This document shows, in pieces, positions 36,776-63,570 of a stretch of DNA of 64,000 nt. The notes below the pieces were generated by a model. The model was not told where the DNA came from. It did not search any database and saw only the letters and a program-made list of their open reading frames with translations. The position numbers and the translations under genes are program-made. This stretch comes from Lama guanicoe (taxonomy: Eukaryota), in assembly GCA_013239625.1 (NCBI GenBank), contig MU055922.1:11870080-11934079 (forward strand), given 5' to 3'. Position 1 is the first letter of the stretch. Every line of letters begins with the position of its first letter.

Positions 36776-36997
36776 ATATAACAGTTTGTGCCTATGATCA
36801 CATCAGTTGGCATCTGATTGGAATGAGCTCTGGACCAGAACTGTTCTCCATTCATTTCAATGGCCAGGTCCTGGAGCAGAACCATCATAAGATCTCAGCC
36901 ATCACTCTCGTCAGTGCTACATCCACTACTGCAAACATGACTGCGAGCCCACAGGGAAAGTGGATCGTATCTTCTCTCATCCCAAAACATTTTCAAG
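36776..36997 (+). CDS. F5: Factor V exon 6 (222 nt), GC donor
   Basis: [35 protein letters not shown]...LIPKHFQ; donor AAG|GCAAGA. Confidence 0.95.
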
Positions 36998-38273
36998 GCA
37001 AGAAATTCTTCCAACAGTCTTGCTTATGAATGTAGGATCCTTTCTTCCTAGGCACAAACTCCCTCATTCTCCTTTGCCCTTTCAATCCACCCACACTCCA
37101 AAGGTACATGCCTTGGTCCCTGAGAACAGAATTTAGATATTTTGCTTTTAGACTTCTAATACATTAGTTGGGAAATGGAGGAAGTAGAGAAATTGACAGA
37201 TTTTTTTTAAACTGAAGCAAAAGCCAAAGAGGTCTCTACTTCCTTGAAAGGAGAAAGGAAACAAAAACATACATATATTCTTTCTTGGGGTATTTAATAT
37301 GCAGTTAAAGCAAAAGAACTAGGTATTGGAACAAGTCAAAGATCTGGATATTTATAGAAGTACCAAGATACAGAAAGTGTAAAGTTTTAACATGAAAAGA
37401 TTATCTTTTATAATAAGATAAGCACAAAGCCTGGCACAAAGAGGAACCCAAGATACGTATGTTGCAAGGAAAAAAAAAATCTCTAACCAGCTGAGGAGTG
37501 AGCTTTAAAGAACATTGGTGAGTTCTGGTGGGGGAAAAAAATCAACATAGGTTATTATATAGAATCACAAAAACAAACTAACTAATTATTCTATCACACA
37601 TTTCTGTTTTAAGACTGTTGGGAGGAGGGCTCCTGTAAACAGACTAAAATAAAAGTAAATAATATCACTATAGGAAATCATTGTGTTACCAACATAATGT
37701 GTATAAAAGCAAGACACATAAGAGGCACTTTATGGGGTCATTTCATTTTCCACACTGAATAGTCAAAACTGTATTTGAAGTAATGAAATTGTCACAATAT
37801 CCCTGGGAGATAGAATTCCAGATAATAATAAAACAGTAACAACAAAACTAACACTATTGAGGTTAAGTGCTTTTTGTACTATCTTCATTTTAACAATAAT
37901 TTTATACAGTACATACTAGCAATATCTTCATTTTATGAATAAAGGAATAGATGACAGGAAAAATGAGAAATTGGTAAGACCTAAGTCATAAGGTATTACG
38001 GATCTGGAAATTATGAGAAATTTTCCTTCTCTGGAAGAAAGAAAGGAAATCTTCCCAAGTTTTTCCCTGACCTACCCTCTCTTTCCTTTGCTTTTTATTC
38101 TTGTCCTTCTCTACTGTACTATAAGAGCTCCAAACCAAAATGTTCCAGTTGCCTATGCATTACTTTCACTGCTATTATTTAAACCTTCCACAAATTTATT
38201 TAAAAGGTATGCATTTTGATGAGCCTTAATTTCTTCTCTCAAATTCTTTCGTTGTCTTTATGTCCTAACTCAG

Positions 38274-50162: not shown

Positions 50163-52395
50163 GAACTTGGATGTTAACTACCATGAATTTCAATCGAAGA
50201 AGCAAAAAACTACGGCTGAGATTCAGGGACGTTAAGTGTATCCGGAATGAGGAGGATTCATATGAGATCACTTACGAATATTCAGCATCTACAGACATGA
50301 CTACAAGGAAAATGCATGATTCTTCAGAAAACAAAGATGAAGAGGATGATGCTGATTACCAGAACACACTGGCTTCATCATTAGGAATTAGGTCATTCAG
50401 AAATTCATCACTGAATCAGAAAGAAGAAGAGTTGAATCTTACTGCCCTAGCTCTGGAGAACAACTCTGAATTCATTCCTCCAAGTACCAATACAGCTGTT
50501 GGTTCAAATTCTTCTTCCCCAGGCAACATCAGCAGGCTCATTGTCAATAACTTTGCAGAATCTCAGAAAATGCTTCCTCACCCAGAAGGCACAACAGCTG
50601 GTCCTCACCTAGGACACCTTGGCTTAGACAAGACCTCAGTTCTCAACTCTCCCACAGCAGAGCATTCCAGCCCTTATTCTGAAGACCCTGTGGAAGATCC
50701 TCTACAGTCAGATGTCACAGGGATAAGCCTGCTTCCATTTGGTAAAAAAGGATTAAAAAGTCAAGAATATGCTAAACATAAAAGATTCAAGGCAGGAAGA
50801 GACCAAGCAGCAAAGCACAGGTCCTCCCAGATGGAATTCCCAGCGCATAAAACTGGAAGACATTTAAGCCAGGACAACATTCCTTCCTCCAGAATGGGAT
50901 CCTGGGAGAACCTTCCCAGTGATCTGTTACTCTTACAACAAAAGGATCCGTCTAAGATTTTGAATGGGAAATGGCATTTGGTTTCCGAGAAAGGTAGTTA
51001 TGAAATAATCCAAGATGCTGATAAAGACACAGCCATTGAAAAGCTGCCAAACAGCACCCAGAATGCCTCAAGGACTCAGGCAGAAAACATCCCTTTTACA
51101 AAGAAGCCTAGAAAGCAGAGTGATCACCCAGAGTTTTCTGTAACTAGACATAAGCCTCTACAAGAAAGACAAGATGAAGGAAATAGTAGATTGAAGAAAG
51201 GCCCTTTTTTAATTAGGACACGAAAAAAGAAAAAGGAAGAGAAATCTGCGCACCATGTTCCTCTATCTCCAAGGAGTTTTCGCCCTCTAAGTGGACAGTC
51301 CAACACCCCATTTTCAGACAGGAGACTCAGTCATTCATTGTTACTCCATAAGTCCAATGAAACATCTCTTCCAACAGACCTCAATCAGACATTCCCCTCT
51401 ATGAATCTTAGTCTGATAGCCTCACTTCCTGACCATATTCAGAACCCCACAAATGACACCAGTCACACAAGCTCCCCTCTGGATCTTTATCAGACAGTGC
51501 CCCCAGAGGAACGCTATGAAACATCCCCTATTCAAGACTCTGATCCAACGCACTCCTCTACTGTCCCCAGTCACAGATCTTTTCCTCCAGAGCCCAGCCA
51601 GGTACCCAACTATGACCTGAAAAACGAGGCCTTCCCAACTAATGTTAATCAAATGCTCCCCTCCTTGAAACCTGAAGTCTGGCAGACAGTCAATTCTCCA
51701 GAACTCAGTCAACCATCCCTCTCTTCAGACCTCAGCCAGACAACCCTTTCCACAGACCTCATCCAGGGGACTCTCTCTCCAGACCTCATCCAGGAGACTC
51801 TCTCTCCAGACCTCATCCAGGGGATTCTCTCTCCAGACCTCATCCAGACAACCCTTTCCCCAGACCTGGGTCAGATGCCCCTTTCCTCAGACCTCAGCGA
51901 GGCAATTCTCTTATCAGACATCAGTCAGACACCCCTTTCTCCTGATCTCAGGCAGACATCACCTCCTCTAGACCTTGATCAGACATCCTATACTTCTGAA
52001 TCTAGTCAGTCACTGCCTCCACTAGACTTTGATCAGATTTTCCCTTATCCAGATCTTGGTCAGATGCCATCTTCTCCACCACATTCTACACTAAATAGCA
52101 CTTTTATACCAAGGGAATTTAATCCACCAGTTGTAGTAGGACTCAGTAGAGATGATGGAGATTACATTGAGATTATTCCAAGGCAGAAGGAAGAGAACAG
52201 TGAAGAAGACTATGTTGAAGATTATTACGTGGCCTATGATAACCCGTACCAAACTGATCTGAGGATCAACATTAACTCCTCCAGAAATCCTGACAACATT
52301 GCAGCATGGTACCTTCGCAGCAACAATGGAAACAGAAAAAATTATTACATTGCTGCTGAAGAACTGTCCTGGGATTATTCAAAATTTGCACACAG
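50163..52395 (+). CDS. F5: Factor V exon 13 (2233 nt; end of A2, whole B domain, start of A3)
   Basis: Thrombin sites LGIR|SFR (50390), LSPR|SF (51272), WYLR|SNN (52316); basic region 51104-51241; acidic region 52157-52291. Confidence 0.97.
51683..52060 (+). repeat. F5: B-domain 27-nt (9-aa) coding tandem repeat, about 11 clear and 3 degenerate units
   Basis: QTTLSPDL[S/I/G]-type units; cagacctcatccag at 51753, 51780, 51807 and 51834. Confidence 0.93.
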
Positions 52396-56015: not shown

Positions 56016-57063
56016 GTATTTTCTTCTGACTTTGATCTTATCTCTGAACTAAATCACACTGGGTGACAGTGATACTTGCCCATAGGTCTTCACAAGATTA
56101 GACAGGAGATGTATCTGTGGAACCAGGAGCTCTAACTAAAACCAGGTCCTTAGATGTCTCCGAGGGCTGATGTAACCTGGCAGGTGACACTCAGGTGAAG
56201 GAGAGTAGACAAAGTCTGAAAGACAGCACACAATGGCTGCTGCCAAACAAACCCAAACAAACCAACAAACTAAAAAGCAGTGTGTGTCCGCTGGAAACAT
56301 AAATTGAAAAAGCACTAGCACTATTCACAGTCTAAACAGTTAACAAAGCTCTCTCTTGATCTCTAAAGGATCAAGTACTTATATAGAGGAAGTGATCTTG
56401 TACTTTCTAAACTAAGAATGATTGTAGCAGCGCTTAGCAGTTCCCAGATGGCACCCAAAGCCTACGAGAATAAAATAGTGTAGGAAATGGGGTAACGAGG
56501 TAATGGGAGGAGCGTGCCAAGACAGCATTTGGGTGGGAAACACAGGAAAAGCACATCTACTCTGAAATCCACTCAGGAATTTTGTCCATAAAGAGGCAAT
56601 GGAATTACAGTTTTAGAAAAATGCAGAATTTAGAATCTGATGAACAGCAATGAATGACTTAGGGATCAGAAAAAAAAAAAATGAAGACGAGTAAGCTCTG
56701 CTTTTGGAGTTTGATGAATGGAGGTGGTGACTGCCGTGAGATTTCTGATCAGGAGGGACCTGTGCTTTGAGTAAGGGTCATTCACTATAACAGGAATAGA
56801 GAAAGTTGCCATTGCTTAAGGAATTAAAATAAAAAAGACATTATATACAATATCCAGTCACTGCTGCAGCCTCCCCAGCCAGTCACTGAGGCTAAGCTGG
56901 TCTGTTCTTCCTCTCCTACCCCTGTTACACACTCAGGCTACCCCTTTTCACTTGATTGGAATACAATCCGACTTCACCTGTCAAAGCACTTTGGCGTAGA
57001 GGAAGGCAAATGATATGACTTATAATCTGCTCCAAAACCCTGCTCTCTGGACTCTGCTGATCA

Positions 57064-58526: not shown

Positions 58527-58763
<237 letters not shown>

Positions 58764-60714: not shown

Positions 60715-61602
60715 GTATCATCCAAGAGCCACATGATGTTTTTAGCAGGAGAGTGCCTGTTACTAGAATATTACTAGCTTTTAGGTTGGAAATATTCAAC
60801 TCCGAGAACTCTGACATAACAGAGGCATAATCTGTAGTAGTAATTGCTTTAATTCTCACTTATGCTCTGACTACACTGCAAACATCAGTGAGCTAGGAAA
60901 CTTAAACCAAATGGTTCAAACCAAAGGCATTCCTCTCAGTTGGGGAATCAACATAAAGCATCTTTCTTAATGATTTGTGGTTCATGGGAAAGTGCATATA
61001 AGAAATTCTCCACACACCTAGAGTAGAAAAGGAGAAAGATACCAGGAATTCAAGTAGGACCGAGATACTCACTGAACTTGACAATTCAGTATTCAAGAAA
61101 CAGTATCCATCTACCCATCTGTCTGTCCATCCACCCATTCAGTCAGCCAGCTAGTCAGCATTTATTAAGCACCTGTTGAGTACCAAGCCGTGTCAACATC
61201 TAGATAGCTCAGTGGCTGGTATTCCCTTCTGTGATCAGGATGTAAATAATACTGTAACTTTTGGGTAAACTTTTGAGAACATACTCTTATGAGGGATAGT
61301 ACTTAATGTTGTAAAATGACTTGATTTAAGATACAAACAGACGGAAATCAGTTTAAAAACTAACTGTGTTCCAGGATTTCAGTTGTTTTCCTCTAAAGTG
61401 TCACTAATTTTAATTTCTATTAAAGTACCGGTCTTGCTGGTGCCTTTATCATTTTATGATCAGACATATTTAAGTCAGTGCCACACAGATAGGTGAAAAT
61501 ATGTACTGACCCACCAGAGGTATAATCTATAGCCATGGAGATTTTACTTTGTTAGATGTACTTTAGAGGAAAAAAATTATTCATCGTTCTATTTTTTTGT
61601 AG

Positions 61603-61674
61603 AATGTAAGATGCCAATGGGACTAAGCACTGGTCTCATAGCTGATTCACAGATCAAGGCTTCTGAGTCTTTGG
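61603..61674 (+). CDS. F5: Factor V exon 19 (72 nt, start of C1)
   Basis: [24 protein letters not shown]; donor TGG|GTAAGT. Confidence 0.96.
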
Positions 61675-61796
61675 GTAAGTAGCCTGTGAAAGGCACCTCC
61701 TACAATTGTGCAGTATACAGCCTGCAAAACCACACATGACAACTCTGCCTATTGAATGTATGAGTCATTGCTCCTCTCCTGGCTTTTCTGTACCAC

Positions 61797-62195
61797 TATG
61801 ACACAACATAGTAAGGCAGCTTTGTCTGGGGTGCTAGTCTGGTGATGTTACAGTTCCCTCCAACAGAATCTGTTTTCCTGCCCCTTGAATCTGGGTTGGC
61901 CAATGGAACTGTCACAAATGTGACTCCCCCAGAGGCATGAATAGCACTTGTGCATTGGAACCCTCGGTACCATATGAACAAGCCCAAGCTAGTTGGCCAG
62001 AGGATAAGAAGTCACATGGAAAAGAAACAAGGCATCCCAGACTTCTGCTGAATAGGTTAATGAATGCAGATTATTGAGTAAGCTTCAGTCACGATCAACC
62101 AAGTCTGCCTTAGACCAGAAGACCACCCAGCCAACCCAGCCCAAATAGCCAAATTGTAGAATTATGAGCTACAGAAATGGCTACTGTTCTTAGCA
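61797..62195 (+). mobile_element. MLT1-type LTR, 3' end truncated
   Basis: ccccttgaatctgggttggcc...cacccagccaacccagcccaaat...agaattatgagc...aaatggctactgtt. Confidence 0.7.
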
Positions 62196-62229
62196 AAAAC
62201 AAAAACAAGGAAATTAGAAAATATTTCAT

Positions 62230-62340
62230 TACTGACCCATTAGAGGTATAATCTCTAGCCACGGGGTTTTTACTTTATTATAGGTAATAATTATTCATTA
62301 TTCTGTTGTTCTGTAGAATGTAAGATGCCAATGGAACTAA
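62230..62340 (+). repeat. Diverged direct duplicate of the intron 18 end and first 24 nt of exon 19
   Basis: Aligns to 61504-61626: 41/48 identical in the first block, 28/29 across the splice acceptor. Confidence 0.92.
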
Positions 62341-62874
62341 ATCATGTAACATTCTATCGGGACTCAAAGGGTCTTATCAGGCAGGTATTGCAGTCCCCAT
62401 TAATAGGGCCCTTTGCTGTGTCAGCCATTCATCTACTCAAGAAACGTTGCTGATCACCCACTGTGAGTCAGGATTTCCTCCTAAATTTTCTCTCTGCCTC
62501 AAACTCATCCCAAGATCAAGAGGTCAATTGTAAGGGAGCATGAGGCTCCCGTAAATCCCTCCCACATCTTCCTGCTAGGCAGGCACACTCAGCTGAAACC
62601 ATGAATATAACTGAGAAAAAATAAATATGCCCTGTATGCAAAGAAGAGGGTAGATGGTAGTTAACAGCTGACCAACAACAGACCTGAAACCAGAATTTCA
62701 TCATCAGGGACTGACTTAGTAGCTGAAGCCTGTGTCAACTGCCTGGTCTCCTACTAACTGCAGCAGAAGTTCCTCTAGGAATCTGGTTTTCCACTGGGAA
62801 GAAACTCTCTTGAGAAATTGATACTTGTATTTTTTTTTAATTCAGAATAAATTTTTTTCTTCCTTTCGATTTAG

Positions 62875-62978
62875 ATTATTGGGAACCCAAATTAGCGAGA
62901 TTGAACAATGGTGGGTCATATAATGCTTGGATCACAGAAAAACCTTCAAAGGAAACTGCCTTTAAACCTTGGATCCAG
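62875..62978 (+). CDS. F5: Factor V exon 20 (104 nt)
   Basis: (D)[34 protein letters not shown]. Confidence 0.96.
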
Positions 62979-63414: not shown

Positions 63415-63570
63415 GTGGACATGCAAAGGGAAGTCCTATTTACAGGCATTCAGACCCAAGGTGCCAAACACTACCTGAAGTCCTACTACACCACCGAGTT
63501 CTGTGTTGCTTACAGCTCTGACCAGACAAACTGGCGGATCTTCAAAGGGAACAGCACAAGGAACGTGATG
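63415..63570 (+). CDS. F5: Factor V exon 21 (156 nt); gene continues beyond the window
   Basis: [52 protein letters not shown]; donor ATG|GTCTGT. Confidence 0.96.

What the first reader, a model, noticed from the sequence alone, without database searches (positions are those of the whole stretch)
62230..62390. Duplicated F5 exon 19 acceptor forms a candidate 68-nt poison pseudo-exon in intron 19
Seen: 714 bp downstream of exon 19 is a second copy of its upstream intron and acceptor plus the first 24 exon nt (tgtag|AATGTAAGATGCCAATGGAACTAA). It directly follows the truncated end of an MLT1 LTR. The copied acceptor keeps its AG and pyrimidine tract. The frame stays open (ECKMPMELNHVTFYRDSKGLIRQ) up to a plausible donor CAG|GTATTG at 62384/62385. 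Inference: including 62317-62384, either with or instead of exon 19, shifts the frame and meets TAG at 62893-62895 in exon 20. This would give NMD or an FV lacking its C domains, a possible dosage control or splice decoy. A weak donor AGG|GTCTTA at 62370 would give an in-frame 54-nt exon.
Basis: partly seen in the sequence, partly recalled or inferred. Interest (0 to 1): 0.7.

Follow-up and report, generated by a model that had tools for sequence, protein, structure and literature searches.

The report
Old duplicated splice site in F5
An intron of the clotting factor V gene in an alpaca-like camelid holds a worn 124-base copy of the neighbouring exon's front end, likely left by imperfect DNA repair tens of millions of years ago and likely skipped during splicing, so it is probably ordinary, although its use in RNA is untested.

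Summary
The duplication is real. In F5 of a South American camelid, 62217-62340 copies 61495-61626 (end of intron 18 plus 24 nt of exon 19) at 103/120 identity. The AG, a donor at 62384/62385 and the predicted stop at 62893-62895 are as described. The copy follows a 22-nt filler after an LTR-like repeat whose 3' end is missing. Its size (124 nt), distance (about 720 nt), filler and deletion fit proximal repair-mediated duplications (PMC2671141). Divergence (15/87 intronic, 1/24 exonic) is what drift alone gives; estimated age 24-75 Myr. The donor is not copied: it is flanking sequence. It scores well on a small local matrix (top 1% of intronic GTs), but 10 other equally good AG-GT pairs lie in these F5 introns, and the copied acceptor is weaker than its parent. 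None of 131 FV proteins carries the pseudo-exon peptide. No RNA reads and no outgroup intron were obtained, so inclusion and conservation, the two defining features of a poison exon, are untested. Verdict: a new instance of a known duplication class, likely an inert or leaky pseudo-exon. A regulated poison exon is not excluded (about 7%).

The parts
61495..61626 (+). Source of the duplication: last 108 nt of F5 intron 18 plus first 24 nt of exon 19
61603..61674 (+). F5 exon 19 (72 nt, start of the C1 domain), donor TGG|GTAAGT
   Evidence: spliced mapping of camelid FV P0125
61832..62194 (+). Dispersed LTR-like repeat (MLT1-like by recall, not tested), 3' end missing
   Evidence: 278/359, 189/248 and 232/321 identities to three other copies in G000 (L002-L004); their tails do not align to 62195-62870
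62195..62216 (+). 22-nt A-rich filler with no significant local template
   Evidence: best match in 61000-62194 equalled by 54 of 300 shuffles
62217..62340 (+). The copy (124 nt): 86% identical to its source, one 12-nt and one 4-nt indel
62297..62316 (+). Copied acceptor: YTNAY branch-like A at -20, worn pyrimidine tract, AG at 62315-62316; local matrix score 6.6 against 8.6 for the parent
62317..62384 (+). Candidate 68-nt pseudo-exon: 24 copied nt plus 44 nt unrelated to exon 19; inclusion untested
62368..62376 (+). Weak donor AGG|GTCTTA (54-nt in-frame form); rejected
   Evidence: score -0.11, 3 of 9 consensus matches
62382..62390 (+). Candidate donor CAG|GTATTG, outside the copied segment
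   Evidence: score 8.3, 6 of 9 consensus matches, best GT in intron 19
62875..62978 (+). F5 exon 20 (104 nt)
62893..62895 (+). TAG reached if the 68-nt exon were included, 83 nt before the exon 20/21 junction

Best explanation
This is a 124-nt same-strand copy of the F5 exon 19 acceptor region lying about 720 nt downstream in intron 19, likely inserted during imperfect repair of a DNA break and likely drifting since as a skipped or barely leaky pseudo-exon. Inferred mechanism: a break near the 3' end of an older LTR-like repeat was resected, which removed the repeat's tail. The free end then copied the nearby intron 18/exon 19 template (synthesis-dependent strand annealing or a template switch) and was rejoined with a 22-nt filler. 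The copy brought a branch-like site, a tract, an AG and 24 exon bases, but no donor; the GT at 62385 is pre-existing or chance flanking sequence. Any transcript that did include the 68 nt would be frameshifted and is predicted to be removed by NMD, so a leak of a few percent would cost little and there would be little selection either way. Shown: duplication, filler, missing repeat tail, splice-site sequences, reading frames. Inferred: repair origin, age, neutrality, skipping.
For: Size, distance and junctions match the class in PMC2671141 (parts 1-3 of 8 read): 824 human cases within 5 kb, median 147 bp, fillers of 1-68 nt, deletions, 4 donors that were partial exon/intron; 202 cases in cow (passage). 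The repeat is cut off at 62194 and its tail does not resume after the copy (158-197 of 300 shuffles score as well). The sequence after the copy is not the rest of exon 19 (166 of 300 shuffles). Divergence is 15/87 intronic and 1/24 exonic; if only the copy drifts, 2.1 exonic changes are expected (P(<=1)=0.38) and an intact AG has probability 0.84. The one exonic change is in the copy, since Gly is kept in 111 of the 111 FV proteins where the motif was found (20 of 131 had no match). The acceptor has weakened (6.6 against 8.6; only 6 of 23 real acceptors are weaker). 11 AG-GT pairs (7 donor clusters), this one included, score as well in 48.4 kb of F5 introns, and two non-duplicated AGs at separate sites in intron 19 (62579, 62846), plus a near neighbour at 62583, score higher. 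0 of 131 FV proteins hold the peptide, and all 9 camelid records covering exon 19 are canonical, although a dromedary exon-17-skipped isoform is on record. Decoy-like exons outnumber real ones tenfold (PMC3098058 passages).
Against: No RNA reads were laid, so skipping is not shown. The donor is the best GT in intron 19, above 16 of 21 real donors and in the top 1% of intronic GTs; a donor this good lies 50-250 nt from a random intronic point only 155 of 1737 times (9%) on the local matrix, though 851 of 1737 times (49%) by plain consensus matches. The branch-like site at -20 and the AG-free zone (31 against 32 nt) are kept. The neutrality test has little power (24 nt). Protein records would not be expected to show an NMD isoform. 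No microhomology is evident at either junction, and the deletion here (the repeat's tail, about 45 nt by recall of such repeats) exceeds the 1-15 nt in that paper's sample. No outgroup empty site was found. The tail control was positive for only 1 of 3 pairs of copies.
Confidence: 0.72

Rival explanations
1. Exapted poison exon: the copied acceptor pairs with CAG|GTATTG, the 68-nt exon is included in a regulated share of F5 transcripts, and NMD lowers factor V output.
For: Donor in the top 1% of intronic GTs and best in intron 19; AG, branch-like site and AG-free zone survive an estimated 24-75 Myr; stop placed for NMD. 15.7% of catalogued human pseudo-exons show splicing at one site in normal cells (PMC8819188 passages).
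Against: No sign of constraint; acceptor weaker than its parent; 10 other equal pairs in the gene. FV deficiency is recessive (PMC13116891 abstract), so small dosage changes are likely weakly selected (inference). No read or conservation evidence was obtained.
Confidence: 0.07
2. Different origin, same inert outcome: a full tandem duplication of about 720 nt (exon 19 with the repeat) was followed by a deletion that removed most of the second unit, its exon 19 donor included, perhaps because a doubled 72-nt exon would have damaged the C1 domain.
For: Same orientation; the copy starts close to where one 720-nt unit would end; exon 19 is a multiple of three, so a full copy would have been spliced in frame.
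Against: Needs two events and a separate explanation of the filler; no remnant of the rest of exon 19 or of a second repeat follows the copy.
Confidence: 0.14
3. Alternative last exon: the copied acceptor is used without the donor, the frame stops at 62451, and the AATAAA at 62620 ends a transcript for a factor V lacking both C domains that would escape NMD.
For: Open frame to 62451 and AATAAA at 62620.
Against: AATAAA occurs 1.12 times per kb in these introns, so one falls within 330 nt about 31% of the time; no U-rich element follows; no such protein among 131.
Confidence: 0.04
4. Splice decoy: the copy binds U2AF/U2 non-productively and promotes retention of intron 19 or skipping of exon 19.
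For: Intact acceptor anatomy; the concept exists (PMC8819188 passage).
Against: No data on retention; stronger unrelated AGs lie in the same intron; no constraint seen.
Confidence: 0.03

Closest known systems
Proximal repair-mediated duplications (Pace et al. 2009, PMC2671141; parts 1-3 of 8 and passages read)
   Same: Single copy, over 50 bp, source within 5 kb, size near the median of 147 bp, filler and deletion at the junction, found at a damaged interspersed repeat, partial exon/intron source (4 of 824 human donors).
   Different: The repeat does not resume after the insert, the deletion is larger than in their sample, no microhomology is evident, and the empty site was not seen. Camelids were not among their genomes.
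Unannotated intronic exon homologues and tandem exon duplications (Ivanov and Pervouchine 2022, PMC9013439; parts 1-2 of 4 read)
   Same: Intronic homologue of an annotated exon of the same gene at over 80% identity; they list 4,027 such intronic targets in human.
   Different: Only 24 of 72 exon bases are copied, without the donor, so it cannot be a mutually exclusive twin of exon 19; their expressed examples have split reads and conservation peaks, which are not shown here.
Poison exons and pathogenic pseudo-exons (PMC8819188 passages; human F5 intron 7 pseudo-exon activated by c.1119-1103A>G, PMC13116891 passages)
   Same: Inclusion would shift the frame and give an NMD-type stop in F5.
   Different: Poison exons are conserved and spliced in normal cells, neither shown here; the human F5 case needed a new mutation and gave a minor transcript, in another intron.

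Membership tests
Proximal repair-mediated duplication | Insert of at least 50 bp with one other copy in the genome | tested here: met
   124 nt; the own-genome search gave only the place and its source (counts are lower bounds)
Proximal repair-mediated duplication | Source 50 bp to 5 kb away, not a tandem array | tested here: met
   590 nt between the end of the source and the start of the copy
Proximal repair-mediated duplication | Filler, deletion or microhomology at the junctions | tested here: met
   22-nt filler and missing repeat tail; microhomology not evident
Proximal repair-mediated duplication | No poly(A) tail with target-site duplication (not retrotransposed) | tested here: met
   The copy holds intron sequence and has no 3' poly(A); the 5' filler begins with five A, noted
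Proximal repair-mediated duplication | Interrupted repeat resumes after the insert (their detection rule) | tested here: inconclusive
   Tails of 3 copies do not align after the insert, but the tails aligned with each other in only 1 of 3 pairs
Proximal repair-mediated duplication | Empty site in an outgroup | not testable with these tools
   Two metagenome scans found no mammalian F5 locus; no relatives of G000 are held
Poison exon | Inclusion creates a stop that meets the NMD rule | tested here: met
   Stop 83 nt before the exon 20/21 junction, further junctions downstream
Poison exon | Splice sites of usable strength | tested here: inconclusive
   Within the range of real F5 sites on a matrix trained on only 21 donors and 22-23 acceptors; no MaxEntScan or SpliceAI available
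Poison exon | Spliced in normal cells, rising under NMD block | not tested
   Runs were listed but no reads or contigs were laid
Poison exon | Conserved across species | tested here: inconclusive
   No orthologous intron obtained; copy against source shows no constraint, low power
Mutually exclusive duplicated exon | Full-length, frame-equivalent copy with its own donor | tested here: not met
   24 of 72 nt copied; 68-nt form shifts the frame; donor of the 54-nt form is below all 21 real donors
MLT1 (ERVL-MaLR) solo LTR, for the flanking repeat | Match to a curated repeat consensus | not testable with these tools
   No repeat library; dispersed copies at 72-77% shown; the name is recalled

The most novel reading that the evidence does not exclude
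A DNA-repair accident handed F5 a second exon 19 acceptor next to a good donor, and camelids (perhaps all artiodactyls, given the age) have kept it as an NMD-coupled switch that tunes factor V level: a traceable birth of a poison exon from a partial exon copy in a clotting gene.
Probability: 0.07. Interest if true: 0.55.

Novelty: new member of a known kind. Interest (0 to 1): 0.17.

Why it matters
As it most likely stands it matters little: one more local duplication of a known class, here catching a splice acceptor. Two practical points remain. It is a ready site for a deep-intronic F5 mutation (a G at +5 of the donor or a repaired tract would be predicted to raise inclusion) in species that carry it. 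It is also a mapping trap: 23 of 24 bases equal the start of exon 19, so short-overhang exon 18-19 reads can be misassigned to 62317, and only the 62384-62875 junction is diagnostic. If it proved to be a conserved, regulated poison exon, it would be a datable example of a regulatory exon born from a repair error and a lineage-specific control of factor V level.

Tried and rejected
RNA evidence: 24 runs were listed, but nothing was laid on the region, so inclusion is open in both directions; the unlaid word shares are not used as evidence. Outgroup intron 19: a metagenome scan with exon 21 gave 196 pattern hits, 0 confirmed; an exact 21-nt acceptor pattern gave 0; viral and prokaryote collections were not scanned, being unsuited. 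Earlier findings of this scan: nothing by place, words or sequence. The 54-nt in-frame exon was rejected. A diverged full copy of exon 19 was rejected. A local template for the filler was not found. Truncated whale FV isoforms P0004 and P0015 end at the exon 16 boundary, and deer P0119 is a partial model that jumps from exon 18 into later exons, so none reflects this pseudo-exon. My first species reading (Camelus, notebook entry 1) was wrong and was corrected. Rows dropped from matrix training: the GC donor of intron 6 and the donor of row 22, which spanned a missed exon. Real sites were scored leave-one-out and the candidate donor on the full matrix, which slightly favours the candidate. Literature: searches (listings only, plus passages of two papers) showed no report of this element; some searches were for the known classes. 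Most subscription journals are not in the library and no supplements were read, so absence from print is not established. No structure or complex prediction was run, as none bears on the question.

Full report
Setting. The window holds exons 1-21 of F5. The exon 13 translation finds coagulation factor V, best hit alpaca, and the cluster holds only camelid records. Spliced mapping gives exon 19 at 61603-61674, exon 20 at 62875-62978 and exon 21 at 63415-63570. The 1814 residues of exons 1-21 are 1811/1814 identical to alpaca P0128 and 1782-1785/1814 to three Camelus records, so this is a South American camelid.

Observation. The duplication is real. 61495-61626 aligns to 62217-62340 with 103/120 identities, a 12-nt and a 4-nt indel, and score 148 against at most 38 in 200 shuffles. 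It is one of three proximal non-tandem duplications that a self-BLAST finds in 84 kb and has no third copy among the candidates scored in the genome (2 of 2). Small corrections: 714 nt is acceptor to acceptor, a 22-nt filler separates the copy from the repeat, and the tract is worn.

Anatomy and origin. Upstream lies a dispersed repeat, 61832-62194, 72-77% identical to three other copies (278/359, 189/248, 232/321). Its name MLT1 is recalled, not tested. The other copies run on past the point where this one stops, and none of their tails aligns to 62195-62870 (158-197 of 300 shuffles score as well); the control is weak, since the tails match each other in only 1 of 3 pairs. The 44 nt after the copy are not the rest of exon 19 (166 of 300 shuffles) and the filler has no significant local template (54 of 300). 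So the order is: cut-off repeat, filler, 124-nt copy of DNA from about 720 nt upstream, unrelated flank. That matches proximal repair-mediated duplications as described in PMC2671141 (parts 1-3 of 8 and passages read): 824 human cases within 5 kb, median 147 bp, fillers of 1-68 nt and deletions at the junctions, 4 with a partial exon/intron source, 202 cases in cow. Differences: no evident microhomology, a larger deletion, and no empty site seen, because no outgroup locus was found. A tandem duplication followed by deletion remains possible.

Age and constraint. The intronic part differs at 15 of 87 sites (corrected distance 0.196, 95% range 0.107-0.332), the exonic part at 1 of 24. At the 2.2e-9 rate quoted in PMC2671141 for primates this is about 45 Myr (24-75). 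An internal check agrees that it is old: the non-repeat B domain is 97% identical to Camelus, equal to a neutral distance of 0.01-0.02, whereas 0.196 would give 67%, in the range seen against pig, ruminants and horse (70-72%), whales (77-78%), carnivores (66-68%) and primates (64-65%). The event thus far predates the camel-llama split and may be shared with other artiodactyls; this is rough, since the B domain is not fully neutral. If exon 19 is held by selection and only the copy drifts, 2.1 exonic changes are expected (P(<=1)=0.38) and the AG survives with probability 0.84, so the better match of the exon part and the intact AG need no selection. The single exonic change (Gly to Glu) is in the copy: Gly is kept in 111 of 111 proteins where the motif was found, 20 of 131 having no match.

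Splice-site strength. With no MaxEntScan or SpliceAI, I built matrices from this gene's own sites (21 donors, 22-23 acceptors). The candidate donor scores 8.3, above 16 of 21 real donors and matched by 22 of 2346 intronic GTs; it is the best GT in intron 19. A donor this good lies 50-250 nt from a random intronic point in 155 of 1737 trials (9%); by plain consensus matching (6 of 9) the figure is 851 of 1737 (49%). The copied acceptor scores 6.6 against 8.6 for its parent, above only 6 of 23 real acceptors and matched by 172 of 3327 intronic AGs. It keeps a branch-like site at -20 and a 31-nt AG-free zone. Eleven AG-GT pairs in 7 donor clusters, this one included, score as well in 48.4 kb of F5 introns, and unrelated AGs at 62579, 62583 and 62846 score higher. 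Such decoys outnumber real exons about tenfold (PMC3098058 passages). The donor of the 54-nt form scores -0.11 and is rejected. So the 68-nt exon is a plausible pseudo-exon but not an exceptional one.

Use in RNA. Not determined. Runs were listed but nothing was laid. Indirectly, 0 of 131 FV proteins hold the pseudo-exon peptide or a doubled motif, and all 9 of the 12 camelid records that cover exon 19 are canonical, the other 3 being partial models. A dromedary isoform lacking exon 17 is on record, so minor in-frame forms can reach annotation; this weighs against the 54-nt form but little against an NMD form. If included, the 68-nt exon gives a stop 83 nt before the exon 20/21 junction with more junctions behind it, past the 55-nt limit quoted in PMC8819188, so decay is predicted.

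Mechanism, committed. Likely a repair-born copy (inferred) that supplied an acceptor but no donor (shown), has drifted (consistent, low power), and is skipped or leaks at a low level that NMD would clear (inferred, untested): 0.72. Rivals: tandem duplication then deletion 0.14; regulated poison exon 0.07; alternative last exon using AATAAA at 62620, a signal expected by chance 31% of the time, 0.04; decoy 0.03. FV deficiency is recessive (PMC13116891 abstract), which likely weakens selection on fine dosage control (inference).

Comparison and novelty. It works like, and meets most testable features of, a proximal repair-mediated duplication; the empty-site test could not be run. It is also one of the many intronic exon homologues of the kind listed in PMC9013439 (4,027 in human; parts 1-2 of 4 read), and exons from intragenic duplication are called well studied in 10.1101/009282 (passages). 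It fails as a mutually exclusive exon. It meets only the stop-codon feature of a poison exon; splicing and conservation are untested. Searches showed no report of this element, within a library that lacks most subscription journals; no supplements were read. The scan's earlier notes held nothing. Verdict: new member of a known kind, interest 0.17.

Noticed in passing
window 36995-37005 (F5 intron 6 donor, exon ends 36997): The intron 6 donor is GC, not GT (AAG|GCAAGA), by spliced mapping. I recall the same for human F5; not checked.
   Followed up: no
window 62826-62846: An AG 29 nt upstream of the exon 20 acceptor scores as high as the real one (10.7 each); its use after exon 19 would give an immediate stop. 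On score it is a likelier cryptic acceptor than the duplicated one.
   Followed up: partly
window 58549-58728 (exon 17): Dromedary record P0126 (isoform X2) and marmoset record P0042 both lack the 60 residues of this 180-nt exon: an in-frame exon 17 skip annotated in two distant mammals.
   Followed up: no
window about 51720-52060 (exon 13 repeat region): Camelid FV records differ in B-domain length by steps of 9 residues (2032, 2050, 2059, 2068 aa), so the nine-residue repeat number varies within camelids.
   Followed up: no
proteins P0004 and P0015; boundary at window 56015: Two whale FV isoform records end just after the exon 16 boundary with the same short tail, suggesting a shared alternative end in intron 16; camel models P0122 and P0123 also end on sequence at 56367-56480 in that intron.
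   Followed up: no
L007:4102-4657 (scratch places 78102-78657) and window 38864-38942/42539-42621: Two more proximal non-tandem duplications: a 157-nt direct pair 400 nt apart downstream of F5 (75%) and an 83-nt inverted pair (86%) in intron 7, probably repeat fragments.
   Followed up: no
window 62620-62625: AATAAA 170 nt after the stop reached by read-through from the copied acceptor; chance level about 31%.
   Followed up: partly
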